Assembly: GCF_017348835.2 (NCBI RefSeq)
Contig: NZ_CP071375.1
DNA from: Escherichia coli
Lineage (GTDB): Bacteria; Pseudomonadota; Gammaproteobacteria; Enterobacterales; Enterobacteriaceae
Length of the DNA: 64,000 bases
Reading direction: 5' to 3' (one strand)
The notes beneath the pieces were generated by a model, which was not told where the DNA came from, searched no databases, and saw only the letters and a list, made by a program, of their open reading frames with translations. Shown here one piece after another: positions 11,018 to 42,224 of the stretch. The translations under genes and the position numbers were made by a program. Within the stretch, counting starts at the first letter, position 1. Every line of letters begins with the position of its first letter.

Positions 11018-12082
11018 ATGACCGAACTTAAAAACGATCGTTATCTGCGGGCGCTGCTGCGCCAGCCCGTTGATGTCACTCCAGTATGGATGATGCGCCA
11101 GGCGGGTCGCTATCTACCGGAATATAAAGCCACGCGCGCCCAGGCGGGCGATTTTATGTCGCTGTGCAAAAACGCCGAGCTGGCGTGCGAAGTGACTTTG
11201 CAACCGCTGCGTCGCTACCCGCTGGATGCGGCGATCCTCTTTTCCGATATCCTCACCGTGCCGGACGCGATGGGGTTAGGGCTCTATTTTGAAGCCGGAG
11301 AAGGTCCGCGTTTTACCTCGCCAGTCACCTGCAAAGCCGACGTCGATAAACTGCCAATTCCGGACCCGGAAGATGAGCTGGGTTACGTGATGAGCGCGGT
11401 GCGTACCATTCGCCGCGAACTGAAAGGCGACGTTCCGCTGATTGGTTTTTCCGGCAGCCCGTGGACGCTGGCGACCTACATGGTGGAAGGCGGTAGCAGC
11501 AAAGCGTTCACCGTGATCAAAAAAATGATGTATGCCGATCCGCAGGCGCTGCACGCGCTACTCGATAAACTGGCGAAAAGCGTCACCCTATACCTGAACG
11601 CGCAGATTAAAGCCGGTGCTCAGGCAGTGATGATTTTCGACACCTGGGGCGGTGTGCTTACCGGGCGCGATTATCAACAGTTCTCGCTCTATTACATGCA
11701 TAAAATTGTTGATGGTTTACTGCGTGAAAACGACGGTCGCCGCGTACCGGTCACGCTGTTTACCAAAGGCGGCGGACAGTGGCTGGAAGCCATGGCAGAA
11801 ACCGGTTGCGATGCGCTGGGCCTCGACTGGACAACGGACATCGCCGATGCGCGCCGCCGTGTGGGCAATAAAGTCGCGTTGCAGGGTAATATGGATCCGT
11901 CGATGCTGTACGCGCCGCCTGCCCGCATTGAAGAAGAAGTAGCGACTATACTTGCAGGTTTCGGTCACGGCGAAGGTCATGTCTTTAACCTTGGTCACGG
12001 CATTCATCAGGATGTGCCGCCAGAACATGCTGGCGTGTTCGTGGAGGCAGTGCATCGATTGTCTGAACAGTATCACCGCTAA
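11018..12082 (+). CDS. hemE: Uroporphyrinogen decarboxylase
   Basis: 354-aa ORF; N-terminal [27 protein letters not shown] signature. Confidence 0.95.
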
Positions 12083-12091
12083 GGAGCGATT

Positions 12092-12763
12092 ATGGATCTC
12101 GCGTCATTACGCGCTCAACAAATCGAACTGGCTTCTTCTGTGATCCGCGAGGATCGACTCGATAAGGATCCGCCGGATCTGATCGCCGGAGCCGATGTCG
12201 GGTTTGAGCAGGGCGGAGAAGTGACGCGAGCGGCGATGGTGCTGTTGAAACACCCCTCGCTTGAGCTGGTGGAGTATAAAGTGGCCCGCATCGCCACCAC
12301 CATGCCTTACATTCCAGGTTTTCTTTCCTTCCGCGAATATCCTGCGCTGCTGGCAGCGTGGGAGATGCTGTCACAAAAGCCGGATTTAGTGTTTGTCGAT
12401 GGTCATGGGATCTCGCATCCTCGCCGTCTTGGCGTCGCCAGCCATTTTGGTTTGCTGGTGGATGTGCCGACCATTGGCGTAGCGAAAAAACGACTATGCG
12501 GTAAATTCGAACCGCTCTCCAGCGAACCGGGCGCGCTGGCCCCACTGATGGATAAAGGCGAGCAGCTGGCCTGGGTCTGGCGCAGCAAAGCGCGCTGTAA
12601 CCCGTTGTTTATCGCTACCGGCCATCGGGTCAGCGTGGACAGCGCGCTGGCGTGGGTACAACGCTGCATGAAAGGCTATCGTCTGCCGGAGCCAACGCGC
12701 TGGGCGGACGCGGTGGCCTCGGAACGTCCGGCGTTCGTGCGCTATACAGCAAATCAGCCCTAA
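12092..12763 (+). CDS. nfi: Endonuclease V
   Basis: 223-aa ORF 9 nt after hemE; conserved synteny. Confidence 0.93.
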
Positions 12764-12805
12764 TTCAGGTAAACTGCGGATAATTTCCGTATTTGAGAAC
12801 TCAAC

Positions 12806-13396
12806 ATGTTACAAAACCCAATTCATCTGCGTCTGGAGCGCCTGGAAAGCTGGCAGCATGTCACTTTCATGGCTTGCTTATGCGAACGCATGTACCCCAA
12901 TTACGCCATGTTCTGCCAGCAAACCGGTTTTGGTGATGGGCAAATTTACCGTCGTATTCTCGATCTCATCTGGGAAACGCTGACCGTTAAAGACGCAAAA
13001 GTAAATTTCGACAGCCAACTGGAGAAATTTGAAGAAGCGATTCCTTCAGCCGACGATTTCGATCTGTACGGCGTTTATCCGGCAATCGATGCCTGCGTGG
13101 CGTTAAGTGAACTGGTCCATTCGCGTTTGAGTGGTGAAACGCTCGAACACGCGGTGGAAGTGAGTAAGACCTCCATCACGACCGTTGCGATGCTGGAAAT
13201 GACTCAGGCTGGTCGCGAAATGAGCGATGAAGAGCTCAAAGAAAACCCAGCTGTAGAGCAAGAATGGGACATTCAGTGGGAAATATTCCGACTTTTAGCT
13301 GAGTGCGAAGAACGTGATATCGAGCTGATAAAAGGCCTTAGGGCAGACCTGCGTGAGGCGGGTGAGAGCAATATTGGTATAATTTTTCAGCAATAA
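12806..13396 (+). CDS. yjaG: DUF416-family protein
   Basis: 196-aa ORF at the conserved position between nfi and hupA. Confidence 0.85.
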   Translation: MLQNPIHLRLERLESWQHVTFMACLCERMYPNYAMFCQQTGFGDGQIYRRILDLIWETLTVKDAKVNFDSQLEKFEEAIPSADDFDLYGVYPAIDACVALSELVHSRLSGETLEHAVEVSKTSITTVAMLEMTQAGREMSDEELKENPAVEQEWDIQWEIFRLLAECEERDIELIKGLRADLREAGESNIGIIFQQ

Positions 13397-13582
13397 GACC
13401 AGAAAACGTGATTTAACGCCTGATTTGTCGTACCTGGAGTCTTCCCTTTCGCCCCCCGTCTGGTCTACATTTGGGGGGCGAAAAAAAGTGGCTATCGGTG
13501 CGTGTATGCAGGAGAGTGCTATTCTGGCATTTCCGTCGCACTCGATGCTTAGCAAGCGATAAACACATTGTAAGGATAACTT

Positions 13583-13855
13583 ATGAACAAGACTCAACTG
13601 ATTGATGTAATTGCAGAGAAAGCAGAACTGTCCAAAACCCAGGCTAAAGCTGCTCTGGAGTCCACTCTGGCTGCAATTACTGAGTCTCTGAAAGAAGGCG
13701 ATGCTGTACAACTGGTTGGTTTCGGTACCTTCAAAGTGAACCACCGCGCTGAGCGTACTGGCCGCAACCCGCAGACCGGTAAAGAAATCAAAATTGCCGC
13801 AGCTAACGTACCGGCATTTGTTTCTGGCAAGGCACTGAAAGACGCAGTTAAGTAA
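13583..13855 (+). CDS. hupA: Nucleoid protein HU alpha subunit
   Basis: 90-aa [29 protein letters not shown]...; strong RBS. Confidence 0.97.
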
Positions 13856-13861
13856 GATTGC

Positions 13862-14563
13862 GTGGCAGTGAACAGTTTTAACGAAGGGGTGGTTTCACCC
13901 CTTTTGTCTTTCTGGCGTCGATCATTGATGCTGGCCGGCGCTCTGTTTCTCACTGCCTGTAGTCACAACTCTTCACTTCCTCCCTTTACCGCCAGTGGAT
14001 TTGCTGAAGACCAGGGCGCAGTACGTATCTGGCGAAAAGACAGCGGCGATAATGTGCATCTGCTTGCCGTGTTTAGCCCGTGGCGCAGTGGCGATACCAC
14101 GACGCGAGAGTATCGCTGGCAGGGCGATAACCTCACGCTCATCAATATCAATGTTTACAGCAAACCGCCGGTGAACATTCGCGCGCGTTTTGACGATCGC
14201 GGCGATCTGAGCTTTATGCAACGTGAATCCGATGGGGAAAAGCAGCAGCTTTCTAACGATCAAATCGATTTATACCGTTATCGTGCTGATCAGATCCGCC
14301 AGATTAGCGATGCCTTACGTCAGGGGAGAGTCGTGCTGCGCCAGGGGCGCTGGCATGCGATGGAACAGACCGTGACCACCTGCGAAGGGCAAACCATTAA
14401 ACCTGATTTAGATTCGCAGGCGATAGCGCATATCGAGCGCCGCCAGAGCCGCTCTTCTGTTGATGTCAGCGTGGCATGGCTGGAAGCGCCCGAAGGTTCG
14501 CAATTACTGTTGGTGGCAAACTCTGATTTCTGTCGCTGGCAACCCAACGAGAAAACGTTCTGA
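13862..14563 (+). CDS. yjaH: Putative lipoprotein (DUF1481-type); start codon uncertain
   Basis: ORF open from 13862, but the hupA terminator lies inside it. The internal ATG at 13928 precedes a lipobox-like LMLAGALFLTAC, so the real start may be 13928. Confidence 0.8.
   Translation: MAVNSFNEGVVSPLLSFWRRSLMLAGALFLTACSHNSSLPPFTASGFAEDQGAVRIWRKDSGDNVHLLAVFSPWRSGDTTTREYRWQGDNLTLININVYSKPPVNIRARFDDRGDLSFMQRESDGEKQQLSNDQIDLYRYRADQIRQISDALRQGRVVLRQGRWHAMEQTVTTCEGQTIKPDLDSQAIAHIERRQSRSSVDVSVAWLEAPEGSQLLLVANSDFCRWQPNEKTF
13885..13906 (+). terminator. Rho-independent terminator after hupA
   Basis: aggggtg-gtttc-cacccct hairpin followed by TTTT. Confidence 0.8.
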
Positions 14564-28476: not shown

Positions 28477-28482
28477 TCCTTA

Positions 28483-28510
28483 CAGCTCCCGAAACTTCAT
28501 TCGGGAGCTG
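28483..28510. terminator. Hairpin between convergent metA and the dehydratase gene
   Basis: cagctcccgaa-acttca-ttcgggagctg, 11-bp stem. Confidence 0.6.
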
Positions 28511-28516
28511 TCTCTG

Positions 28517-29704
28517 TCAGGCCATCCGACAAGCTACTGGTGAATAATCGAAGGCTTTATAGGTCAGAACAAACTCTTTATGCCCCAGCCGCTCTGCGCT
28601 ACAAAGTTTACCGCTGCTGACTTCCTCAATGCAGTGCAACATATCGCTTGCGACATCATCAAGCGATGCACCTTCACTGATAATCCTGCCAGCATTAATA
28701 TCCATATCATCCGCCATATTGGCCCAGGTTTGTGGGTTGTTACAGACTTTAATCACTGGCGCAATTACGGAGCCGATCACTGAACCTCGTCCGGTGGTAA
28801 ACAAAATCATATGACATCCGGTAGCGATAAGTTCCATCGCTTCTGATGAGTCATTGATGTTGGGATAGCCGAAACGCGCTTCGCCGTCGGGAACCACATC
28901 CATCAGATACAGACCAGGGTAAGGGGCATGTTCTGTCGGGAGTAAAACGCCCTGAATAGGGCTATCGCCTGACTTTGTATAGGCACCCAGCGATTTTTCT
29001 TCTTGCGTGGTTAACCCGCCGACGGCGTTACCGTTAGAAAAACTGCCTAAACCCATTGTCGCGTAATAGCGTTTAGCTTTATCCATTGCTGCATCAATCG
29101 CCTCTCTGGCCGCAGGTGTCGCCGCTCGCGCCATCATGTGGCCTTCACAACCAATCAACTCGCCGCTCTCTTCAAAAATGCAGGTCGCGCCTTGTGCGAG
29201 GAGTCGATCAAACGCGCGACCTACGGCAGGATTGCCCGTAATGCCGCTGGTGCCGTCGGAACCGCCGCAAATCGTACCAATAACTAAATCACTGAACGCA
29301 ATCGGGCGAACCGCCACCTGCTTAATTTGCGCCAGCATCTCTGTGACACAAACTTTGCCCCGTTTGATGGTTTCTGTAGTTCCCTTATTTTCCTGGATAA
29401 CCAGCTTATGGCATGGGCGACCACTGGCGATGACATCTTCATAAAGTTTATCGCGATCAAAGTTTTCGCAGCCGAGGGCGATAATCAACACCGCACCAAC
29501 ATTGGGATGGGTCGCCAGTCCTTTTACCAGTCGGTAGCCGTAGTCCGTGGGGTAACAGCCGGAAAAACCAAAATACTGCACGTCTTCATTTGTGAAAGAC
29601 TCAGCGATCGCTTTGGCAACGTGGCTGGCGCATTCCACCATAAAGATGACTTGTACGCTGTTACGTATACCGACTCTGCCATCTTGTCTCATGTAACCCT
29701 GCAT
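28517..29704 (-). CDS. UxaA-family (altronate/galactarate-type) sugar-acid dehydratase, catalytic large subunit
   Basis: 395-aa ORF resembling the C-terminal catalytic part of altronate dehydratase; start ATG overlaps the upstream stop by 1 nt. Confidence 0.7.
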   Translation of the reverse strand: MQGYMRQDGRVGIRNSVQVIFMVECASHVAKAIAESFTNEDVQYFGFSGCYPTDYGYRLVKGLATHPNVGAVLIIALGCENFDRDKLYEDVIASGRPCHKLVIQENKGTTETIKRGKVCVTEMLAQIKQVAVRPIAFSDLVIGTICGGSDGTSGITGNPAVGRAFDRLLAQGATCIFEESGELIGCEGHMMARAATPAAREAIDAAMDKAKRYYATMGLGSFSNGNAVGGLTTQEEKSLGAYTKSGDSPIQGVLLPTEHAPYPGLYLMDVVPDGEARFGYPNINDSSEAMELIATGCHMILFTTGRGSVIGSVIAPVIKVCNNPQTWANMADDMDINAGRIISEGASLDDVASDMLHCIEEVSSGKLCSAERLGHKEFVLTYKAFDYSPVACRMA

Positions 29705-30024
29705 CAGGCCTCTCCTGCTGGCTCATAGCCCGCATTATCATGGTGGAATACGGCGATATAATCGCTGTTCAGGTTATGGGAATGGATATGCTCGCCAATA
29801 GGGATAGCCTGACTGGCAGAGCCAATGCCTGCGCCATATTTACGAACTTTATCGCCCTGACATAACGTTTCGATTGCCAGCTTATGCCCAAGAGCAACGT
29901 AGCTTTGTGCCACAAATTCACCACCGTCATAGTGGACGCGATCGCCTTGCTGAATATCTTCCAGGGCGACAACGCAGTTATCGAGTTTGTGTAATAGCAG
30001 AGCGCGTTTATTCATGTTCACCAA
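29704..30024 (-). CDS. SAF-domain small subunit of a UxaA-family dehydratase
   Basis: 106-aa ORF resembling the N-terminal SAF domain of UxaA-type dehydratases; TGATG overlap with the large subunit. Confidence 0.65.
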   Translation of the reverse strand: MVNMNKRALLLHKLDNCVVALEDIQQGDRVHYDGGEFVAQSYVALGHKLAIETLCQGDKVRKYGAGIGSASQAIPIGEHIHSHNLNSDYIAVFHHDNAGYEPAGEA

Positions 30025-30071
30025 CTCTCCTGGTTGTGGGGATACAGGCGACCCACAGGCCGCCCGACTGT

Positions 30072-30836
30072 TTAGAAACCGATCAGCGCGCCGCCATCGA
30101 CAATCAGAACCTGACCGCTAACGAAACCGGCAGCATCAGAAGCCAGATAGGTTGCAGCCCAGCCGATATCTTCTGGTTTGCCGAATTTTTTCATCGGTGT
30201 ACGACCAAGAATTTTATTTTTACGCTCATCGTCACCCTCAATGGCTTTGCGCAGCATTGGCGTATCAATCCAGCCCGGAGCGACGCCGTTAACGCGGATC
30301 CCTGCGCCAGAAAGTTCGGTTGCCATGCCATGAATCAGCCCGAGGTAGGCAGACTTCGCGGCAGCATAGCCGGTGACATAAGGTTGACCGAGGAACGATG
30401 TCATTGAGGCGGTAAAAAGCACACAGGCATTGCCATGCTGTTTCATATGAGGGACCAGCGAGCGAGTCAGAGCGAACGCGCCAACGACATGGACATCAAG
30501 AACCGATTCAAAATCAGCGACGCTCATCTCTTCGATCGGTTTTTTACAGTGATTTCCGGCGTTATTGACCAGAATATCGATCTGATTATGCTGGCTCAGA
30601 AGGCCGTCTACCCAACTTTCCGTCTCGTCAGTGTGGGCCACATTGAACTGGCTCCAGGATGCATTTGGCCCCAGCGACTCGGCAGCGTTTTTGGCAGCTT
30701 CGCCATTGAGATCGGCAATGATGACTTTTGCGCCACAGGCGATCATGCATTTAGCCATTGCATAGCCCAGGCCACTGGCGGAACCGGTGATCAGGGCAGT
30801 TTTATTTTCCAGTGAAAAGGGGTTATTCATCGTCAT
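30072..30836 (-). CDS. Short-chain dehydrogenase/reductase (SDR) oxidoreductase
   Basis: 254-aa ORF with TGSASGLG cofactor motif and YAAAK catalytic pair. Confidence 0.8.
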   Translation of the reverse strand: MTMNNPFSLENKTALITGSASGLGYAMAKCMIACGAKVIIADLNGEAAKNAAESLGPNASWSQFNVAHTDETESWVDGLLSQHNQIDILVNNAGNHCKKPIEEMSVADFESVLDVHVVGAFALTRSLVPHMKQHGNACVLFTASMTSFLGQPYVTGYAAAKSAYLGLIHGMATELSGAGIRVNGVAPGWIDTPMLRKAIEGDDERKNKILGRTPMKKFGKPEDIGWAATYLASDAAGFVSGQVLIVDGGALIGF

Positions 30837-30861
30837 GATTTTTTTCTCGTCAGATAAAGGG

Positions 30862-31875
30862 TTAGAGGTCGATTAAAATTTTGGTGAATGCGCCGGGATC
30901 GGCGGCCCAGTCGCTGAACGCCCGATCGGCAGTATCAATCGGGTAGTGCGCGGAAATAATTAGCTCAATGGGGTAGCACTGCTTTTCCATTAAAGAGAGA
31001 ACTGCTCTGAAATCGGCAACGGTGGCGTTGCGGGAACCACGGATATCCAGCTCTTTCATGAGGAAGCGCGCGCTCTCATAATTCACCGGTTTTTTCGCAT
31101 AGCCGACGTACACCACGCGCCCGCAGAAGGCAGCCAGCTCGACTGCCTGCTCGATGGTTTTATCCAGGCCAATGGCTTCAATCACCACCGCAGGACCGCG
31201 GTCTTCGTTCAGTTTCGCCAGGATCTCAGCAACATTTTCGCGTGCGCTGTTGATATACCTTTCGGCACCACATGCCTTCGCTACCGCCTGCTTACGATCG
31301 TCGATATCAATGGCTACCACGCGACCGCCCATCGCGTTAGCTGCTGCAATAGCGCCAAGACCAATCACGCCGCAGCCCATAACGACGACCCATTCGCCAA
31401 CATTGATTTGCGCCCGGCGCGCAGCGTGAAGACCAACGGCTAATGGTTCGACTAACGCCAGTTCGTCACTGGAAAGGGAATTACAGACAATGACTTTATT
31501 GGCCGGAATAGACAGCAGCGGCACCATACCGCCCTGGCGCTGAACGCCAAGAGTCTGGTTGTTTTTACAGGCATTCGGGCGACCGCTCAGACAGGAACTG
31601 CAATGACCGCATTCGGTACAGGGCAGAACAACAACACGATCGCCTTCCAGAATATGTTTAACCTGGCTGCCTGTTTGCAGGATCTTGCCGCCGATTTCAT
31701 GACCGGGAATGCAAGGATACTGCGTGAGGGGATTTAGCCCGCGCCAGGTATTTAAATCTGAACCGCATAAACCAACTCGTTCAACACGAATTAATACATG
31801 GTCGGCTGGGCAATCAGGTTCGGCGATATCAATAAATCGCGTTACGGAACCTTTATCAATGGCTAACGCTTTCAT
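30862..31875 (-). CDS. Zinc-dependent medium-chain alcohol/polyol dehydrogenase
   Basis: Start taken at MKALAIDKG (337 aa); GHEIGG zinc motif, structural-zinc Cys cluster CTECGHCSSC, GCGVIG Rossmann motif. Confidence 0.8.
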   Translation of the reverse strand: MKALAIDKGSVTRFIDIAEPDCPADHVLIRVERVGLCGSDLNTWRGLNPLTQYPCIPGHEIGGKILQTGSQVKHILEGDRVVVLPCTECGHCSSCLSGRPNACKNNQTLGVQRQGGMVPLLSIPANKVIVCNSLSSDELALVEPLAVGLHAARRAQINVGEWVVVMGCGVIGLGAIAAANAMGGRVVAIDIDDRKQAVAKACGAERYINSARENVAEILAKLNEDRGPAVVIEAIGLDKTIEQAVELAAFCGRVVYVGYAKKPVNYESARFLMKELDIRGSRNATVADFRAVLSLMEKQCYPIELIISAHYPIDTADRAFSDWAADPGAFTKILIDL

Positions 31876-31888
31876 ATAAAAACCTTTT

Positions 31889-33187
31889 TTAAAGTGAATC
31901 GGATGAAATAACAGAATCGGTATTTTTAATATTTCTCTTAATAGGTTTAACGCCAAAGGCTACCCCAAGAGCGCCGATTACCCCAATGGCACCCGCAAGA
32001 ATAAATGCAGCAATAAAACTATTGGTATATTGGACAATGAAGCCAGTTAAAATAGGGGCGATAATTCCCGAGGTGTTTGCCAGTAAATGTACAAAACCAC
32101 CAACGCCACCGACTTTATCAGGGGAAATATTATCGGAGACAATTGCCCACGGCGCGGCAGCGGCGAGATACATAAAGAAGATACCCATTGCCATTAACAT
32201 CACTGCATTTGTTACGGAGGCAACCTGACCCGCAAAACTGATACAAATAGCCGAGAGAATTAACCCTCCAACGATAATTAACTTTCTGGCCAGCAGCAGA
32301 TTTTTGGTTTTGCGATATAACCAGTCTGAAAACATACCGCCAATAGCAATACCAACGCTACCAATAATCCACGGAATGGCCGAGGCAATACTCATCTCCT
32401 GAATATTTAGTCCCTTTTCCATTGAGAGATAACTTGGAAACCAGGTTAAAAAGAAATACAGAATATAGTTAATAGAGAAGAATGCCAGGCCAGTGAACAG
32501 AACTATAGGCTGGGTCAGGTAGAAGATAAAAGGCACTTTGGCTGAGTCAGTGCCGTAGCCTGGCGCGCCTTTTTGCGCCTCATCATACTCGGCAATTTCT
32601 TCTTTCGATGTATGAGGGTTATTATGTGGACGATCGGTAAATGCTTTAATCCAGAAAAATGTCCAGATAAAACCCAGAGACATTAAAATGATAAAAGCGA
32701 TGCGCCAGTTCCACATCACCACGATTGCGCCAACAATCGGACCCGCAATCGCACCACCCAAAGGGTTGCCCGCGTTTGCGATGCCCACAGCTCTGGCGCG
32801 CTGATCAAGCGGAACCCAGTTACTAATGCATTTGTTGATCGTCGTACTAATCGGGCCTTCGCTCATCCCGAATAATACGCGCACGATAAACAAAGATATA
32901 TAACCGAAAGCGAGGCCAGTCAGCCCACAGAACAATGACCAGGAAAGCATTGCAATGGCAAAAACTTTGCGGGGACCATAGAGATCGGATAAATAGCCAC
33001 CAACAAAGTTAAATAATGCATAACCAAAGAAAAAACTACTCAGCATAATCCCAACTTCGGCTGGGTTTAGGCCAAAATGATCTTTGATATAGGGCATTGC
33101 CACAGAAAATGCCGCACGATCGAGATAATTAATTATTCCAGCGATAAACAGCAGGAATAATATTTTGGAATGCTGTCGTTTGAACAT
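31889..33187 (-). CDS. MFS transporter, anion:cation symporter type (hexuronate/aldonate-like)
   Basis: 432-aa ORF with many hydrophobic segments and NYLDRAAFSVAMP motif near the N-terminus; AT-rich coding sequence. Confidence 0.75.
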   Translation of the reverse strand: MFKRQHSKILFLLFIAGIINYLDRAAFSVAMPYIKDHFGLNPAEVGIMLSSFFFGYALFNFVGGYLSDLYGPRKVFAIAMLSWSLFCGLTGLAFGYISLFIVRVLFGMSEGPISTTINKCISNWVPLDQRARAVGIANAGNPLGGAIAGPIVGAIVVMWNWRIAFIILMSLGFIWTFFWIKAFTDRPHNNPHTSKEEIAEYDEAQKGAPGYGTDSAKVPFIFYLTQPIVLFTGLAFFSINYILYFFLTWFPSYLSMEKGLNIQEMSIASAIPWIIGSVGIAIGGMFSDWLYRKTKNLLLARKLIIVGGLILSAICISFAGQVASVTNAVMLMAMGIFFMYLAAAAPWAIVSDNISPDKVGGVGGFVHLLANTSGIIAPILTGFIVQYTNSFIAAFILAGAIGVIGALGVAFGVKPIKRNIKNTDSVISSDSL

Positions 33188-33254
33188 AGCAAGTCCTGCA
33201 TAAATAATTTATGTGAATAGTGGTAGGGTAGAATTAATAATTTAAATATATGAT

Positions 33255-33941
33255 CTACATCACACCGAACTTTTCAAATACTTCCACGGTGCTCATGCCA
33301 TTTTTTATCGCCAGACGAACATCACTTTCGGTTGCGACTTTATTCAGTGCTTCAGCTATTACCTCCTTTTCAACTTCTTTTGGAATAACTAAAAGACCAT
33401 CGCAGTCGCCATAAATAATATCGCCGGGATTTATCACCACACCGCAAACTTCAACCGGGACGTTATAATCAATGACTTTTCCTCGCGGCCCCTGATCCTG
33501 AGCATAAGTACCATAACTAAATGTGGGGAAATTAATATCAAGAATTTCTTTAGAGTCCCGGACATAACCATCAAGAACAGCACCGGCGGCCTTAAGATGC
33601 ATAGCGCGAGTGGACATTAAACCGCCCCATAATGCGTAACGTAGCGAACTTCCTGTCGCAATATAAACATCGTTTTCTTTCAGCGAATCCAGCGCCTCAA
33701 ACATAATACCGAACGGTTTTTTACCAATTGCTGTATTCCCCGACGATGAGTGCAACTCATAAACATCGGCTTCAAGAACAGGCATAGCCCGCCCTGCGAG
33801 AACCATACTGGAGTGTAAAGGTTTCATTGAAGGAGAAACAAACTGATGCAAATATCCTTTGGTATCAAGAATATCGCCAACAACGGCAGTAAATAACTGC
33901 GTACGCATCAACTGAAAAAGTTCCTTGTCATTGTTCCACAT
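33255..33941 (-). CDS. RraA-like / class II aldolase-decarboxylase family protein
   Basis: 228-aa ORF; length and sequence resemble the RraA/HMG-CHA aldolase fold rather than 161-aa RraA itself. Confidence 0.6.
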   Translation of the reverse strand: MWNNDKELFQLMRTQLFTAVVGDILDTKGYLHQFVSPSMKPLHSSMVLAGRAMPVLEADVYELHSSSGNTAIGKKPFGIMFEALDSLKENDVYIATGSSLRYALWGGLMSTRAMHLKAAGAVLDGYVRDSKEILDINFPTFSYGTYAQDQGPRGKVIDYNVPVEVCGVVINPGDIIYGDCDGLLVIPKEVEKEVIAEALNKVATESDVRLAIKNGMSTVEVFEKFGVM

Positions 33942-33992
33942 AATTAACGATCCTGAATTGTAGTGAGGAGGTGTGAACAGAGACTAGAGTAG

Positions 33993-34025
33993 AACCTATA
34001 AACCTGTCAAACAGGTTTATAGGTT
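33993..34025. promoter_or_regulatory. Perfect 15-bp inverted repeat, candidate operator in the divergent promoter region
   Basis: AACCTATAAACCTGT-caa-ACAGGTTTATAGGTT, 52 bp upstream of the RraA-like gene start and ~210 bp upstream of the GntR-type regulator gene. Confidence 0.55.
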
Positions 34026-34236
34026 GAAGAGTGTAAACGATCGCACTCTGCGAGCCTCTTCACAATTTCAGCTATGGTTTACTGCGATCGCTTTTCAACC
34101 GGATGCGTCCTATCGCTGCTACGCCTTTTTCGGTAACATACGAACCAAAGGTAGGAGGGATTATCTGTAACGCTATGATTTTTAAGTTTTAGATAAGATA
34201 TGTTGCGGCTGAAACAGGTAATATCTGCTCGGTAAA

Positions 34237-34965
34237 TTGATGGCAAGAATGATGACAACGAAAATTCAGCTAGAAAGTAACACGCTCTCAGCCCAGGTAC
34301 GAGACTACATACTGTCGTTAATTGCGCGGCAAAAGTTAACCGTCGGGATGCCGGTGCCCAGTGAAATGCAACTTACCCAGGAACTTGGCGTCAGTAAGGG
34401 CGTTGTCCGTGAGGCCTATCGTTCACTTGCCGCCCTTGGAATACTCGAAACCAAAAGTGGTAAAGTGCCACGCATTAAAGCCTTTGATTCTAGCGTGTTG
34501 CAGGTCATTTTTTCCTTTGCGACGCTGACCGAGCAGGTCAGTTCTTCACAGATACTTGCCGCCAGACGTTGGCTGGAAGCCGGATGCGTACAAATGGCGG
34601 CGCTCAATGGAGATGAAGAGGATTTTGCTGCGCTGAAGCAAGAAATGTCGTTGATACGCGAAGAGTTTTCTGACACCGAGCGTTTCCTGGAACATGATTT
34701 AAATTTCCATTTGCTGTTATCGCAGGCATCTAAAAATCCTTTATTCAGCATTCTGTTGCAGGCTTTACACACCCAGTTAACCCACTCAATGCGAGCGGGT
34801 CTGGAAGCACAACGCAATAATCATGAATATGAGCGTGGGATAATTGCATTGCACCAACGTGTTTGTGACTGTGTTTGTAATCGCGATGCTGAAGGTGCGA
34901 TGAAAGCCATGGATGAGCATTTCAACCTCTCTTCTGATGCTTTAAACAATCAGTCTCCTCTTTAA
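34237..34965 (+). CDS. GntR/FadR-family transcriptional regulator
   Basis: 242-aa ORF with N-terminal winged-HTH (QLTQELGVSKGVVREAYRSLAALGILE) and a C-terminal helical ligand domain; divergent from the catabolic genes. Confidence 0.8.
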   Translation: MMARMMTTKIQLESNTLSAQVRDYILSLIARQKLTVGMPVPSEMQLTQELGVSKGVVREAYRSLAALGILETKSGKVPRIKAFDSSVLQVIFSFATLTEQVSSSQILAARRWLEAGCVQMAALNGDEEDFAALKQEMSLIREEFSDTERFLEHDLNFHLLLSQASKNPLFSILLQALHTQLTHSMRAGLEAQRNNHEYERGIIALHQRVCDCVCNRDAEGAMKAMDEHFNLSSDALNNQSPL

Positions 34966-34989
34966 TTAAGCGATTCAGCACCTTATCTC

Positions 34990-35013
34990 AGGCACCTTCG
35001 GGTGCCTTTTTTG
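34990..35013 (+). terminator. Rho-independent terminator after the GntR-type regulator gene
   Basis: aggcacc-ttcg-ggtgcct followed by TTTTTT. Confidence 0.8.
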
Positions 35014-35213
35014 TACCCGAAACGCCCTTCATAAAGTGAATGTTTTTTATTTATATTGTTATCAATAAGTTATCAAGTATTTTTAATTAAAATGGAAATT
35101 GTTTTTGATTTTGCATTTTAAATGAGTAGTCTTAGTTGTGCTGAACGAAAAGCGCACAACGATCCTTCGTTCACAGTGGGGAAGTTTTCGGATCCATGAC
35201 GAGGAGCTGCACG

Positions 35214-36815
35214 ATGACTGAACAGGCAACAACAACCGATGAACTGGCTTTCACAAGGCCTTATGGCGAGCAGGAGAAGCAAATTCTTACTGCCGAAGCG
35301 GTAGAATTTCTGACTGAGCTGGTGACGCATTTTACGCCACAACGCAATAAACTTCTGGCGGCGCGTATTCAGCAGCAGCAAGATATTGATAACGGAACGT
35401 TGCCTGATTTTATTTCGGAAACAGCTTCCATTCGTGATACAGACTGGAAAATTCGTGGTATTCCCGCGGACTTACAAGATCGTCGAGTCGAGATAACTGG
35501 CCCGGTTGAGCGCAAGATGGTGATCAACGCACTCAACGCCAATGTGAAAGTCTTTATGGCCGATTTCGAAGATTCACTGGCACCAGACTGGAACAAAGTG
35601 ATCGACGGGCAAATAAACCTGCGTGATGCAGTTAACGGCACCATCAGCTATACCAATGAAGCAGGCAAAATTTATCAGCTCAAGCCCAATCCAGCGGTTT
35701 TGATTTGTCGGGTACGCGGTCTGCACTTGCCGGAAAAACATGTCACCTGGCGTGGTGAGGCAATCCCCGGTAGCCTGTTTGATTTTGTGCTCTATTTCTT
35801 CCACAACTATCAGGCACTGTTGGCAAAGGGCAGCGGTCCCTATTTCTATCTGCCGAAAACCCAGTCCTGGCAGGAAGCGGCCTGGTGGAGCGAAGTCTTC
35901 AGCTATGCAGAAGATCGCTTTAATCTGCCGCGCGGCACCATCAAGGCGACGTTGCTGATTGAAACGCTGCCCGCCGTGTTCCAGATGGACGAAATCCTTC
36001 ACGCACTGCGTGACCATATTGTTGGTCTGAACTGCGGTCGTTGGGATTACATCTTCAGTTATATCAAAACGTTGAAAAACTATCCCGATCGCGTCCTGCC
36101 AGACAGACAGGCAGTGACGATGGATAAACCATTCCTGAATGCTTACTCACGCCTGTTAATCAAAACCTGCCATAAACGCGGTGCTTTTGCGATGGGCGGC
36201 ATGGCGGCGTTTATTCCGAGCAAAGATGAAGAGCGCAATAACCAGGTGCTCAACAAAGTAAAAGCGGATAAATCGCTGGAAGCCAACAACGGTCACGATG
36301 GCACATGGATCGCTCACCCAGGCCTTGCGGATACGGCAATGGCGGTATTCAACGACATTCTCGGCTCCCGTAAAAATCAGCTTGAAGTGATGCGCGAACA
36401 AGACGCGCCGATTACTGCCAATCAGCTACTGGCACCTTGTGATGGTGAACGCACCGAAGAAGGTATGCGCGCCAACATTCGCGTGGCTGTGCAGTACATC
36501 GAAGCGTGGATCTCCGGCAACGGCTGCGTGCCGATTTATGGCCTGATGGAAGATGCGGCGACGGCTGAAATTTCCCGTACCTCGATCTGGCAGTGGATCC
36601 ATCATCAAAAAACGTTGAGCAATGGCAAACCGGTGACCAAAGCCTTGTTCCGCCAGATGCTGGGCGAAGAGATGAAAGTCATTGCCAGCGAACTGGGCGA
36701 AGAACGTTTCTCCCAGGGGCGTTTTGACGATGCCGCACGCTTGATGGAACAGATCACCACTTCCGATGAGTTAATTGATTTCCTGACCCTGCCAGGCTAC
36801 CGCCTGTTAGCGTAA
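35214..36815 (+). CDS. aceB: Malate synthase A
   Basis: 533 aa from [21 protein letters not shown]; first gene of aceBAK. Confidence 0.95.

Positions 36816-38332: not shown

Positions 38333-42224
<3,892 letters not shown>

What the first reader, a model, noticed from the sequence alone, without database searches (positions are those of the whole stretch)
33255..33941. RraA-like protein as first gene of a catabolic operon
A 228-aa RraA/HMG-CHA-aldolase-like protein sits at the head of the operon, next to the regulator. Larger RraA-fold proteins in other bacteria act as divalent-metal pyruvate aldolases or oxaloacetate decarboxylases, so this is more likely the terminal carbon-carbon lyase of the pathway than an RNase E regulator.
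Basis: inference. Interest (0 to 1): 0.4.

Follow-up and report, generated by a model that had tools for sequence, protein, structure and literature searches.

The report
RraA-fold enzyme heading sugar-acid operon
A 228-residue protein with the RraA fold is the first gene of a rare six-gene sugar-acid breakdown island in E. coli; it belongs to a widespread, uncharacterised enzyme family that most likely splits the pathway's 2-keto-3-deoxy acid into pyruvate and a small aldehyde, rather than regulating RNase E.

Summary
Window 33255-33941 (minus strand) encodes a 228-aa Pfam RraA-like protein. It is the first gene of a six-gene operon (RraA-like, MFS acid-sugar transporter, Zn-ADH, SDR, split UxaA-type dehydratase), divergent from a GntR/FCD regulator. 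The operon lies on a 6.5-kb island between metA and aceB, found in 2 of 5,426 complete E. coli genomes.

The protein keeps the Arg-Asp/Glu catalytic and metal-binding residues of HMG/CHA aldolase. It scores below the curated cut-offs of every named subfamily, including RNase E regulator RraA. Its family is tightly conserved (61-82% identity) in at least 557 loci across several phyla. In 46 of 71 loci the gene lies near a dehydratase (UxuA, UxaA or enolase type) or the GH88/DUF4861 setting beside KduI/KduD, all of which yield 2-keto-3-deoxy sugar acids; one further locus has an IlvD/Edd dehydratase.

The best reading is a metal-dependent pyruvate aldolase for an L-galactonate/L-fuconate-type route (confidence about 0.5). 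Rivals are a C-C hydrolase, an FlDet-like dehydratase, or accessory enolate chemistry. Evidence against a simple aldolase: KdgK/Eda co-occur in a few clusters, and no conserved aldehyde-handling partner was found. No characterisation was found in the literature searched.

The parts
33255..33941 (-). RraA-like protein, 228 aa; first gene of the operon; proposed metal-dependent 2-oxo-acid lyase
   Evidence: ORF and translation. PF03737 113.8 bits. Below all NCBIfam cut-offs. R128/D129/E205/G106 align with 3NOJ R123/D124/E199/G101 and are invariant in the family. AF2 pLDDT 86.5 and Foldseek matches to RraA-fold entries.
31889..33187 (-). MFS transporter of the anion:cation symporter type (similar to the D-galactonate transporter)
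   Evidence: PF07690 209.8 bits. TIGR00893 333 bits, below its cut-off of 395. RefSeq 'MFS transporter'.
30862..31875 (-). Zn-dependent alcohol/polyol dehydrogenase, 337 aa (RefSeq start; the mechanical ORF runs to 31956); proposed aldonate 5-dehydrogenase
   Evidence: ADH_N and ADH_zinc_N. Best NCBIfam match PRK10083; best PDB match RspB 4ILK at 136 bits. RefSeq coordinates.
30072..30836 (-). SDR oxidoreductase, 254 aa; proposed 5-keto-aldonate (uronate) reductase
   Evidence: adh_short families. PDB neighbours include the gluconate 5-dehydrogenase/KduD-like group; L-KDF 4-dehydrogenase is not among the 50 best hits.
29704..30015 (-). UxaA-family small subunit (SAF domain), 103 aa
   Evidence: PF08666 SAF. 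RefSeq 'UxaA family hydrolase'. Its stop overlaps the start of the large subunit.
28517..29704 (-). UxaA/GarD-family dehydratase large subunit, 395 aa
   Evidence: GD_AH_second and GD_AH_C. TIGR03248 167.6 bits, below its cut-off. Only PDB relative is galactarate dehydratase 6U7L.
34240..34965 (+). Divergent GntR/FCD-family transcriptional regulator, 241 aa
   Evidence: GntR and FCD domains. RefSeq 'FadR/GntR family transcriptional regulator'. A GntR/FCD gene is always divergent from the RraA-like gene in 18 related loci.
33993..34025 (.). Perfect palindrome AACCTATAAACCTGT-caa-ACAGGTTTATAGGTT in the divergent promoter region; candidate operator of the GntR/FCD regulator
   Evidence: 15-nt arms, 100% complementary. 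The core ACCTGT-N3-ACAGGT recurs about 20-100 bp upstream of the orthologous gene in Serratia, Sodalis and Entomohabitans loci.
28483..28510 (.). 11-bp-stem hairpin between the convergent metA and UxaA large-subunit genes; possible bidirectional terminator
   Evidence: Read directly from the sequence printed (CAGCTCCCGAA-ACTTCA-TTCGGGAGCTG). The terminator scan did not call it because it has no T-run.
34990..35007 (+). Intrinsic terminator; the ancestral metA terminator, now located after the regulator gene
   Evidence: Terminator scan. The same sequence follows metA directly in DH5alpha.
28479..34965 (.). The whole 6,487-bp island, inserted between the metA stop codon and its terminator
   Evidence: blastn against the K-12-type metA-aceB junction: flanks 97.7-97.8% identical, island absent. 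Present in 2 of 5,426 complete E. coli genomes.

Best explanation
The gene encodes a divalent-metal-dependent 2-oxo-acid lyase of the RraA/HMG-CHA-aldolase fold. It fills the 'pyruvate aldolase' slot of an acquired aldonate-catabolic operon.

Proposed flow (inferred, not shown):
1. An L-aldonate of the L-galactonate/L-fuconate type enters through the MFS permease.
2. The Zn-ADH oxidises C5 and the SDR re-reduces it, so C5 is epimerised to the D-altronate configuration. IdnD/IdnO do this for L-idonate, and LgoD/UxaB for L-galactonate.
3. The two-subunit UxaA-type dehydratase forms a 2-keto-3-deoxy-hexonate (KDG, or its 6-deoxy analogue).
4. The RraA-like enzyme binds the 2-oxo-carboxylate on Mg2+/Mn2+ through D129 and E205, stabilises the enolate with R128, and cleaves C3-C4. 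The products are pyruvate plus glyceraldehyde or lactaldehyde.

The GntR/FCD repressor bound to the 33993-34025 palindrome would keep the operon off until the acid sugar or an intermediate appears.

Shown here: the gene, the fold, the conserved catalytic residues, the operon, the island, and the cross-phylum association with dehydratases that make 2-keto-3-deoxy acids.
Inferred: the substrate, the order of reactions, and the aldol cleavage itself.
For: 1. Catalytic machinery. 3NOJ R123/D124/E199/G101 align with R128/D129/E205/G106 and are invariant in 22 family members spanning several phyla. PMC5065237 documents these residues as enolate-stabilising and metal-binding, and states that most homologues carrying the motif are likely class II pyruvate aldolases.

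2. Fold. The AF2 model (pLDDT 86.5) matches 3NOJ, YER010c, 3K4I and 5IR2 better than the classical RraAs.

3. Conserved gene context. The module RraA-like + Zn-ADH + SDR + UxaA recurs with three different transporters: MFS, TRAP, and (in Rhizobium rhizogenes L070) ABC. It is found in E. coli, E. albertii, Serratia, Sodalis, Mesorhizobium, Uliginosibacterium and Rhizobium. A minimal RraA + SDR + UxaA set lies next to a GH28 in Pedobacter.

4. Census of species-representative loci. 46 of 71 loci carry a UxuA, UxaA or enolase-type dehydratase, or the GH88/DUF4861 setting, within 8 kb; in Aquimarina that setting also holds KduI and KduD. A Variovorax locus has an IlvD/Edd dehydratase overlapping the gene's stop codon. 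The common denominator is a 2-keto-3-deoxy acid product.

5. Complete four-step sets. The rhizobial and flavobacterial clusters hold SDR + lactonase + UxuA + RraA-like, which is the complete set for a non-phosphorylative route (dehydrogenase, lactonase, dehydratase, aldolase; scheme in PMC6336799). PfkB kinase is near in only 6 of 71 loci and Eda in 3 of 71.

6. Substrate clue. The TRAP binding protein of the paralogous E. coli island is 68% identical to PDB 4OVT. An orthologous TRAP system sits beside the canonical LgoD-UxaB-UxaA L-galactonate genes in Salipiger, without an RraA-like gene. PMC5507952 describes that pathway and TRAP systems with dual L-fuconate/L-galactonate specificity.

7. 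Established knowledge (EcoCyc-level, recalled). E. coli aldonate and aldarate islands pair a dehydratase with a pyruvate aldolase: yjhG/yjhH, yagF/yagE, rhmD/rhmA, garD/garL, dgoD/dgoA.
Against: - No characterised relative is closer than about 30% identity, so the reaction type is extrapolated across a wide gap.
- FlDet, an RraA-family enzyme, acts on a 2-keto-3-deoxy acid as a dehydratase/decarboxylase and did not cleave KDG.
- In three Bacteroidota loci the cluster continues with KdgK and Eda. In two Rhodobacteraceae loci a PfkB kinase follows the gene. In those loci a KDG aldolase would look redundant.
- No aldehyde dehydrogenase, aldehyde reductase or glycerate kinase is enriched among 143 further neighbours.
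- E. coli already has kdgK/eda (established knowledge), and the canonical L-galactonate route needs no aldolase.
- 17 of 71 loci, mostly Burkholderiales, show no sugar-acid genes.
- The residues that bind the distal part of the substrate in HMG/CHA aldolase are not conserved.
Confidence: 0.5

Rival explanations
1. C-C hydrolase of a 2,4-diketo-3-deoxy acid ('route 3'). The UxaA-type enzyme would dehydrate L-fuconate or L-galactonate directly. The SDR would oxidise C4 of the 2-keto-3-deoxy acid. The RraA-like protein would replace the FAH-family hydrolase and give pyruvate plus lactate or glycerate.
For: - Route 3 is established for L-fucose, L-rhamnose and pentonates, with an SDR plus an FAH hydrolase, and UxaA-family enzymes can be D-arabinonate or L-galactonate dehydratases.
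- The minimal conserved set RraA + SDR + UxaA mirrors dehydratase + dehydrogenase + hydrolase.
- The SDR is the commonest neighbour (46 of 71 loci).
- NCBIfam holds an FAH-RraA fusion family, PRK12764.
- No aldehyde-handling partner would be needed, which is consistent.
Against: - The window SDR groups with the gluconate 5-dehydrogenase/KduD-like enzymes, and L-KDF 4-dehydrogenase is not among its 50 best PDB hits.
- Rhizobial and flavobacterial clusters have a single SDR together with a lactonase, so that SDR is needed as the sugar 1-dehydrogenase.
- No RraA-fold hydrolase is known.
- The Zn-ADH would be left without a role.
Confidence: 0.12
2. FlDet-like dehydratase (with or without decarboxylation). 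The enzyme would remove the 4-OH of a 2-keto-3-deoxy acid and feed a semialdehyde route (Weimberg-like) instead of cleaving it.
For: - FlDet of Flavobacterium sp. UMI-01 is an RraA-family protein that converts 2-keto-3-deoxy-glucarate to alpha-ketoglutarate semialdehyde.
- FlDet shares R, D and E with the window protein.
- The UxaA large subunit's only PDB relative is galactarate dehydratase.
Against: - Only 29% identity to FlDet.
- The family's signature loop YAQDQGPRGKV is absent from FlDet.
- No aldehyde dehydrogenase of the alpha-ketoglutarate-semialdehyde type is in the island or enriched among neighbours.
- The contexts are aldonate and uronate routes (UxuA, KduI/KduD, GH38), not aldarate routes.
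Confidence: 0.1
3. Accessory enolate chemistry that is not the main carbon-flux step. Examples: keto-enol tautomerase or C-H exchange on the dehydratase product, epimerase, oxaloacetate decarboxylase, or removal of a side product.
For: - The gene co-occurs with complete KDG-KdgK-Eda sets in some loci.
- It is absent from the canonical L-galactonate locus that uses an orthologous transporter.
- HMG/CHA aldolase itself catalyses pyruvate proton exchange and oxaloacetate decarboxylation.
- Some Burkholderiales neighbours are PLP-dependent eliminating enzymes, which also make 2-oxo acids.
Against: - An accessory role fits poorly with 61-82% identity maintained across phyla and the position at the head of the operon.
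- UxaA-family dehydration is reported as stereospecific at C3, so no free enol needs processing.
- No precedent exists.
Confidence: 0.13
4. RNase E (degradosome) regulator, like E. coli RraA.
For: Shares the RraA fold. Some sources name homologues 'regulator of RNase E activity RraA'. S. coelicolor RraAS2, a long-form family member, inhibits RNase ES (title).
Against: - Scores 49.6 bits against the 136-bit cut-off of the RraA equivalog.
- E. coli RraA is the weakest structural match (15-16% identity, TMq about 0.5).
- The catalytic residues are retained.
- The gene sits in catabolic operons in phyla with very different RNA decay machinery.
- E. coli already carries rraA and rraB (established knowledge).
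Confidence: 0.03

Closest known systems
[quoted passage not shown]
   Same: Same alpha-beta-beta-alpha fold (Foldseek E 3e-15, TM 0.69). Similar length of about 230 aa. The Arg-Asp pair, the metal-binding Glu and the Gly of the pyruvate pocket are conserved. Both occupy the last, pyruvate-releasing position of a catabolic pathway.
   Different: Only about 21% identity. Far below the equivalog cut-offs: 72.5 against 304.5 and 76.8 against 179 bits. The distal substrate-binding residues differ (His-75 aligns with Phe-81; Asn-71 lies outside the alignment). The context is sugar-acid catabolism, not aromatic ring-cleavage.
FlDet, 2-keto-3-deoxy-glucarate dehydratase/decarboxylase of Flavobacterium sp. 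UMI-01 (PMC8563752)
   Same: An RraA-family protein of about 230 aa that acts on a 2-keto-3-deoxy sugar acid in uronate catabolism and is stimulated by Mg2+/Co2+/Ni2+. It shares the R, D and E residues.
   Different: 29% identity. It lacks the family's YAQDQGPRGKV loop. Its chemistry is dehydration plus decarboxylation of an aldarate derivative, followed by an aldehyde dehydrogenase that this island lacks.
E. coli RraA (regulator of RNase E activity A) and RraAS2
   Same: Same superfamily and core fold.
   Different: Classical RraA is about 160 aa. This protein has an extra N-terminal helical segment, an insert (residues about 60-75) and a long C-terminal helix. It is the weakest match by sequence and structure. 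From memory, E. coli RraA has Gln in place of the metal-binding Asp.
Class I and class II 2-keto-3-deoxy-acid aldolases of E. coli aldonate/aldarate islands (YjhH/YagE, RhmA, GarL, DgoA) and L-KDF aldolase
   Same: Same proposed role and the same operon logic: transporter, regulator, dehydratase, aldolase. Route 1 of the non-phosphorylative pathways.
   Different: Unrelated folds (DHDPS/NAL, HpcH/HpaI and KDPG-aldolase TIM barrels). If the proposal is right, this would be a further, independent recruitment of a fold to the same step.
Canonical L-galactonate pathway (LgoD, UxaB, UxaA) and L-idonate pathway (IdnD, IdnO)
   Same: A Zn-ADH plus a second dehydrogenase, followed by a UxaA-type dehydratase. 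An orthologous TRAP binding protein is found next to LgoD-UxaB-UxaA in Salipiger.
   Different: An SDR replaces the mannitol-dehydrogenase-type UxaB. UxaA is split into two subunits. An RraA-like gene is added at the head of the operon.

Membership tests
RraA-like superfamily (Pfam PF03737) | Full-length domain match above the gathering score | tested here: met
   113.8 bits against 24.5; profile positions 1-152 of 152.
RraA-like superfamily (Pfam PF03737) | [quoted passage not shown] | tested here: met
   AF2 pLDDT 86.5, pTM 0.84. All 26 Foldseek PDB hits with E <= 0.001 are RraA-fold entries.
HMG/CHA aldolase (TIGR02798 / NF006731 equivalogs) | Score above the curated equivalog cut-off | tested here: not met
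   72.5 against 304.5 bits, and 76.8 against 179 bits.
HMG/CHA aldolase (TIGR02798 / NF006731 equivalogs) | Catalytic Arg-123, metal ligands Asp-124 and Glu-199, and Gly-101 of the pyruvate pocket | tested here: met
   R128, D129, E205 and G106 align with these residues and are invariant in the family. Their roles are described in PMC5065237.
HMG/CHA aldolase (TIGR02798 / NF006731 equivalogs) | Residues for the distal carboxylate and phosphate site (Asn-71, His-75, Thr-145, Lys-147, Arg-195) | tested here: inconclusive
   His-75 aligns with Phe-81, Lys-147 roughly with Arg-153, Arg-195 with Lys-201. Asn-71 lies outside the HMMER alignment.
HMG/CHA aldolase (TIGR02798 / NF006731 equivalogs) | Genomic context of protocatechuate 4,5-cleavage or gallate degradation | tested here: not met
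   The neighbours are MFS, Zn-ADH, SDR, UxaA and GntR. No aromatic-cleavage genes appear in the 80-locus census.
RNase E regulator RraA (NF006875 equivalog) | Score above the curated cut-off; protein of about 160 aa | tested here: not met
   49.6 against 136 bits, matching only residues 88-191 of 228.
RNase E regulator RraA (NF006875 equivalog) | Binding to and inhibition of RNase E / RhlB | not testable with these tools
   Needs a pull-down or an in vitro cleavage assay.
FlDet-type 2-keto-3-deoxy-glucarate dehydratase/decarboxylase | Orthology-level similarity to FlDet (its reported relatives are 63-80% identical) | tested here: not met
   29% identity over 215 residues. The range of FlDet relatives comes from PMC8563752.
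FlDet-type 2-keto-3-deoxy-glucarate dehydratase/decarboxylase | Partner alpha-ketoglutarate-semialdehyde dehydrogenase in the pathway | tested here: not met
   No aldehyde dehydrogenase in the island, and none recurring among 143 additional neighbours.
Class II (metal-dependent) pyruvate aldolase, as a functional class | Metal-dependent retro-aldol release of pyruvate from a 4-hydroxy-2-oxo acid | not testable with these tools
   Needs an enzyme assay. Only the residues required for enolate chemistry could be checked.
L-galactonate-type aldonate catabolic module | Zn-ADH (LgoD-like) + second reductase + UxaA-family dehydratase + acid-sugar transporter + GntR regulator | tested here: met
   All five components are present by family. 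The pathway definition comes from PMC5507952. Substrate identity was not tested.
L-galactonate-type aldonate catabolic module | Transporter shared with demonstrated L-galactonate/L-fuconate systems | tested here: inconclusive
   The window has an MFS transporter, not a TRAP system. The paralogous island (enzymes 62-80% identical) has a TRAP binding protein 68% identical to 4OVT. An orthologue flanks LgoD-UxaB-UxaA in Salipiger. The 4OVT ligand (L-fuconate) is recalled from memory only.

The most novel reading that the evidence does not exclude
This tightly conserved RraA-fold family, present at 557 or more loci in species-representative genomes from Proteobacteria, Bacteroidota and other phyla, is a previously unrecognised metal-dependent aldolase for non-phosphorylated 2-keto-3-deoxy-hexonates (KDG or 6-deoxy-KDG type). 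It would be a further, independent evolutionary solution for the last step of non-phosphorylative sugar-acid, hexuronate and mannose catabolism. It would also let gut E. coli use host- or microbiota-derived L-fuconate/L-galactonate without KdgK/Eda.
Probability: 0.35. Interest if true: 0.6.

Novelty: new variant of a known kind. Interest (0 to 1): 0.45.

Why it matters
- **Annotation.** Thousands of genomes label this family 'RraA family protein', 'RNase E regulator', '4-hydroxy-4-methyl-2-oxoglutarate aldolase' or 'dimethylmenaquinone methyltransferase'. A tested function would correct all of these.
- **Pathway gaps.** It would fill the unexplained extra gene in sugar-acid, pectin/uronate and alpha-mannoside utilisation clusters of gut, rumen, soil and marine bacteria.
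- **E. coli biology.** It would define the substrate range of an accessory metabolic island (MFS form rare; TRAP form in about 12% of complete genomes, including the ExPEC strains IAI39 and CE10). This is relevant to niche use of oxidised sugars in the gut.
- **Enzymology.** It would add a new substrate class, or a new reaction, to the RraA fold. That fold is already known for aldol cleavage, decarboxylation and dehydration.

Tried and rejected
1. **FlDet orthology.** I expected the flavobacterial homologues to be FlDet orthologues. FlDet is only 29% identical and belongs to a different subfamily.
2. **'RraA-like replaces KdgK+Eda'.** This is too simple. PfkB and Eda follow the cluster in L043, L051 and L053, and PfkB follows the gene in L018 and L039.
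3. **Conserved glyceraldehyde/glycerate partner.** I looked for aldehyde dehydrogenase or glycerate kinase among 143 unlabelled neighbours and found no recurrence.
4. **Recurrent neighbours without Pfam hits.** c12 matches nothing in Pfam, NCBIfam or the PDB and may be a shadow ORF in high-GC genomes. unk142 is only weakly cupin-like.
5. **Ligands of PDB 4OVT and 4O8M.** Vetting et al. 2015 is not held. Foldseek titles are cut off before the ligand name. The TRAP review does not list them. The ligands therefore remain recollections.
6. **PDB 5IR2 'cellulase'.** It is the best sequence and structure match, but no paper was found. The label is uninformative for an RraA-fold protein.
7. **Literature searches.** Searches for RraA combined with UxaA, KduI, uronate, mannonate, KDG, Entner-Doudoroff, GapMind or RB-TnSeq found no characterisation of this family.
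8. **ORF caller.** My first length-greedy ORF caller lost the target in 18 high-GC loci. I replaced it with selection based on cross-locus conservation.
9. **SuyAB-like sulfolactate sulfo-lyase reading of the split UxaA.** Considered because only SuyAB is known to be heteromeric. It is not favoured: the dehydratase is fused in Uliginosibacterium and the context is sugar acids. However, three Ensifer loci do carry a TauE sulfite exporter nearby.
Full report
**1. Observation**

An ATG-initiated ORF of 228 codons lies at window 33255-33941 on the minus strand. It matches Pfam PF03737 (Aldolase/RraA) over the full profile at 113.8 bits, E 1.1e-32. The identical locus exists in two complete 'pig' E. 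coli genomes, PE164 and F2_81, where RefSeq names the product 'RraA family protein' WP_053883805.1.

It is the first of six co-directional genes:

| Gene | Window coordinates |
|---|---|
| RraA-like | 33941-33255 |
| MFS transporter | 33187-31889 |
| Zn-ADH | 31875-30862 |
| SDR | 30836-30072 |
| UxaA-family small SAF subunit | 30015-29704 |
| UxaA-family large subunit | 29704-28517 |

A GntR/FCD regulator (34240-34965) is transcribed divergently.

**2. The island**

Comparison with the K-12-type metA-aceB junction shows a 6,487-bp insertion (28479-34965). It lies exactly between the metA stop codon and the ancestral metA terminator, which now follows the regulator gene. The flanks are 97.7-97.8% identical to DH5alpha. 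A new 11-bp-stem hairpin (28483-28510) separates the convergent metA and dehydratase genes.

The divergent promoter region holds a perfect palindrome with 15-nt arms (33993-34025). Its core ACCTGT-N3-ACAGGT recurs just upstream of the orthologous gene in Serratia, Sodalis and Entomohabitans. This makes it a credible operator for the GntR/FCD protein.

G+C is 41-46% over the RraA-like, MFS and regulator genes and 51-53% over the dehydrogenase and dehydratase genes.

**3. What kind of RraA-fold protein it is**

The protein scores below every curated NCBIfam cut-off:

| Model | Score (bits) | Cut-off (bits) |
|---|---|---|
| PRK06201 'hypothetical protein' (best match) | 99.9 | 231 |
| HMG/CHA aldolase equivalog TIGR02798 | 72.5 | 304.5 |
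| HMG/CHA aldolase equivalog NF006731 | 76.8 | 179 |
| RNase E regulator RraA, NF006875 | 49.6 | 136 |

Sequence matches to solved structures are all remote: 5IR2 ('cellulase'), 3K4I, YER010c, HMG/CHA aldolase 3NOJ, T. thermophilus RraA, RraAS2, and P. aeruginosa RraA last.

An AlphaFold2 model built on a 22-sequence family alignment is confident (pLDDT 86.5, pTM 0.84). Foldseek ranks the long-form proteins first (5IR2, 3K4I, 3NOJ, YER010c, RraAS2; TMq 0.64-0.77). The classical 160-residue RraAs come last (TMq 0.50-0.57, 15-23% identity).

This is not met. However, no characterised protein is close either.

**4. Catalytic residues**

In the HMMER alignment to 3NOJ, Arg-123 and Asp-124 align with R128 and D129, Glu-199 with E205, and Gly-101 with G106. 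PMC5065237 describes Arg-123 as essential for stabilising the pyruvate enolate and Asp-124/Glu-199 as the metal ligands. It also states that most homologues carrying the motif probably are class II pyruvate aldolases.

These four residues are invariant in the family across phyla, and FlDet shares them. The family additionally has its own nearly invariant loop, YAQDQGPRGKV (146-156), and polar residues H32, Q33, E57 and D59. The distal substrate-binding residues of HMG/CHA aldolase are not conserved.

I conclude that this is an enzyme that forms a metal-bound 2-oxo-acid enolate, with a distal pocket of its own. The residues alone cannot separate aldol cleavage from decarboxylation, dehydration or hydrolysis.

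**5. A cautionary precedent**

The only literature link between the RraA family and 2-keto-3-deoxy sugar acids that I found is FlDet of Flavobacterium sp. UMI-01. It converts 2-keto-3-deoxy-glucarate to alpha-ketoglutarate semialdehyde (dehydration plus decarboxylation) and did not act on KDG, KDPG or DEHU. I took its sequence from the paper's supplement. It is 29% identical to the window protein, so the two are not orthologues. It does show that this fold is not limited to aldolase chemistry.

**6. Family and genomic context**

The family is tightly conserved: 61-82% identity from Enterobacterales to Flavobacteriia, Rhizobiales, Burkholderiales, Anaerolineae and Terriglobia.

I called genes in 80 loci using cross-locus conservation, clustered them, and annotated cluster representatives with Pfam. 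Four architectures recur:

| Type | Taxa | Gene order |
|---|---|---|
| A | Window, Sodalis, Serratia, Entomohabitans, E. coli/E. albertii, Succinivibrionaceae, rumen Bacteroidales, Pedobacter, Rhizobium rhizogenes, Mesorhizobium, Uliginosibacterium | GntR \| RraA-like, [MFS, TRAP or ABC], [Zn-ADH], SDR, UxaA |
| B | Ensifer, Rhizobium, Rhodobacteraceae | SGL-lactonase, UxuA, SDR, sugar ABC transporter, GntR \| UxuA, RraA-like |
| C | About 22 Bacteroidota loci | LacI, GH38, RraA-like, sugar MFS, 142-aa cupin-like protein, SDR, lactonase, (SBP, enoyl-CoA hydratase, CoA-transferase III), UxuA |
| D | Flavobacteriia | GH88, AraC \| DUF4861, RraA-like (KduI and KduD lie beside GH88 in Aquimarina) |

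Maribellus has RraA-like, UxaC, SDR, Nramp and UxuA. One Variovorax locus has an IlvD/Edd dehydratase overlapping the gene's stop codon.

Of 71 loci with adequate flanks:
- 46 have a UxuA, UxaA or enolase-type dehydratase, or the GH88/DUF4861 setting, within 8 kb.
- 46 have an SDR.
- 26 have a lactonase.
- 6 have a PfkB kinase.
- 3 have an Eda aldolase.

The only metabolite common to all these settings is a 2-keto-3-deoxy-hexonate, typically KDG. A published haloarchaeal mannan cluster likewise places an RraA-family gene beside mannonate dehydratases, with only a putative annotation.

**7. The window's module**

The Zn-ADH is nearest to RspB and to polyol/aldonate dehydrogenases. The SDR is nearest to gluconate-5-dehydrogenase/KduD-like enzymes, and L-KDF 4-dehydrogenase is not among its 50 best PDB relatives. 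The dehydratase belongs to the UxaA/GarD superfamily.

A Zn-ADH plus a second reductase plus UxaA is the published L-galactonate route: LgoD converts L-galactonate to D-tagaturonate, UxaB reduces that to D-altronate, and UxaA dehydrates it to KDG (PMC5507952). From established knowledge, it also parallels IdnD/IdnO in L-idonate catabolism.

E. coli has a second version of the module between abrB and gltA, with a TRAP transporter in place of the MFS. Its enzymes are 62-80% identical to those of the window, and it is present in 661 of 5,426 complete genomes. Its binding protein is 68% identical to PDB 4OVT (Ochrobactrum anthropi Oant_3902) and 43% identical to 4O8M. From memory only, those entries hold L-fuconate and L-galactonate. 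I could not confirm this with the tools.

Two tool-based observations support the link:
- In Mesorhizobium, an orthologous TRAP system is embedded in the RraA module.
- In Salipiger, an orthologous TRAP system flanks the canonical LgoD, UxaB-type and full-length UxaA genes, with no RraA-like gene.

The window's module is therefore a variant of an L-galactonate/L-fuconate-type route in which an RraA-like enzyme has been added.

**8. Mechanism proposed**

The most economical single function that fits types A to D is retro-aldol cleavage of the non-phosphorylated 2-keto-3-deoxy acid into pyruvate plus an aldehyde. This is route 1 of the non-phosphorylative pathways. Three lines of reasoning support it:
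- It completes the four-step set (dehydrogenase, lactonase, dehydratase, aldolase) in types B and C.
- It fits the habit of E. coli aldonate and aldarate islands of pairing a dehydratase with a pyruvate aldolase (established knowledge).
- It would be indispensable if the substrate is a 6-deoxy acid such as L-fuconate, because the 6-deoxy product cannot be phosphorylated by KdgK (inference).

I put this at about 0.5.

**9. What speaks against it, and the rivals**

- KdgK and Eda are co-linear with the cluster in L043 and L051 and lie nearby in L053. A PfkB kinase follows the gene in L018 and L039.
- No aldehyde-handling enzyme is conserved nearby.
- 17 of 71 loci, mostly Burkholderiales, lack sugar-acid genes. 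Their neighbours include PLP-dependent eliminating enzymes and a creatininase-family protein.

| Rival | Probability | Status |
|---|---|---|
| C-C hydrolase of a 2,4-diketo-3-deoxy acid, replacing the FAH-family enzyme of route 3 | 0.12 | Attractive because RraA + SDR + dehydratase is the minimal conserved set and an FAH-RraA fusion family exists. Weakened by the SDR's affinities and by the single SDR in types B and C. |
| FlDet-like dehydratase | 0.10 | Weakened by low identity and the missing semialdehyde dehydrogenase. |
| Accessory enolate chemistry (tautomerase, epimerase, oxaloacetate decarboxylase) | 0.13 | No precedent; fits poorly with the strong conservation. |
| RNase E regulator | 0.03 | Contradicted by sequence, structure and context. 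|

**10. Comparison with what is known, and novelty**

The protein is a member of the RraA-like superfamily. It is not a member of the HMG/CHA aldolase, RraA or FlDet subfamilies, because their defining scores or identities were tested and not met. It probably works like a class II pyruvate aldolase.

I found no publication characterising this subfamily or noting its association with KDG-forming pathways. That library is not exhaustive. I rate it a new variant of a known kind.

It is of moderate interest: not startling, but a widespread and mis-annotated family with a sharply testable hypothesis, and a plausible link to the use of oxidised fucose or galactose derivatives by gut E. coli.

Noticed in passing
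L002:8024-15829 (E. coli; also L003, L013, and L014 in E. albertii): A paralogous island between abrB and gltA carries the same RraA-like/Zn-ADH/SDR/split-UxaA module, with a TRAP DctPQM transporter in place of the MFS. It is present in 661 of 5,426 complete E. coli genomes, including IAI39 and CE10, and is annotated only generically.
   Followed up: partly
L010:12938-14486 (Serratia) compared with window 28517-30015: Serratia's RraA-like, MFS, Zn-ADH and SDR proteins are 71-82% identical to the window's, but its two UxaA subunits are only 37-44% identical. The dehydratase component seems to have been exchanged within an otherwise orthologous operon.
   Followed up: no
window 31500-35500 compared with 28500-31500: The island has a mosaic composition. 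G+C is 41-46% over the RraA-like, MFS and regulator genes and 51-53% over the Zn-ADH, SDR and UxaA genes. This suggests assembly from two sources.
   Followed up: no
L017, L020, L023, L042-L045, L051, L055, L084 (Bacteroidota): A conserved GH38-linked cluster combines the RraA-like gene with a sugar MFS, an unannotated 142-aa cupin-like protein (no Pfam hit; weak WbuC-cupin match), SDR, 7-bladed lactonase, a solute-binding-protein-like gene, an enoyl-CoA hydratase, a family III CoA-transferase and a UxuA-like dehydratase that scores below the mannonate dehydratase cut-off. The CoA-dependent trio has no obvious role in mannose oxidation.
   Followed up: partly
L016, L019, L028, L050, L062, L066, L069, L081 (Rhizobiaceae and Rhodobacteraceae): These loci carry two UxuA paralogues. 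One is in a two-gene operon with the RraA-like gene. The other is in the divergent sugar-ABC/SDR/SGL-lactonase operon. The sugar is unknown.
   Followed up: no
L021:10684-12441 (Variovorax); L022, L046, L047, L076 (other Burkholderiales): An IlvD/Edd-family dehydratase overlaps the stop codon of the RraA-like gene. In other Burkholderiales loci the gene sits beside a threonine-dehydratase-like PALP/ACT protein or a Cys/Met gamma-lyase-type PLP enzyme, outside any sugar context.
   Followed up: partly
PDB 5IR2 (no window coordinates): The best sequence and structure match of the window protein is deposited as a 'novel cellulase from microbes associated with the gut ecosystem', although it has the RraA fold. 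No paper was found, and the label looks unreliable.
   Followed up: partly
L028, L060, L062 (Ensifer), about 11200-14450: Downstream of the UxuA/RraA-like pair lie a class V aminotransferase-like gene, a metallo-beta-lactamase-fold gene and a TauE/SafE sulfite exporter. This hints at a sulfur-containing substrate in these rhizobia.
   Followed up: no
window 40038-42224 (minus strand): A 728-aa ORF with a ShET2-enterotoxin N-terminal domain and ankyrin repeats lies between aceK and iclR. By position it corresponds to arpA of E. coli K-12 (from memory), so it is probably ordinary.
   Followed up: no
L093:3546-7145 (Salipiger thiooxidans): A canonical L-galactonate-type locus (Zn-ADH, mannitol-dehydrogenase-type reductase, full-length UxaA) lies next to two GntR genes and a TRAP system orthologous to that of the E. 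coli RraA island, without any RraA-like gene. It is a natural comparator for experiments.
   Followed up: partly
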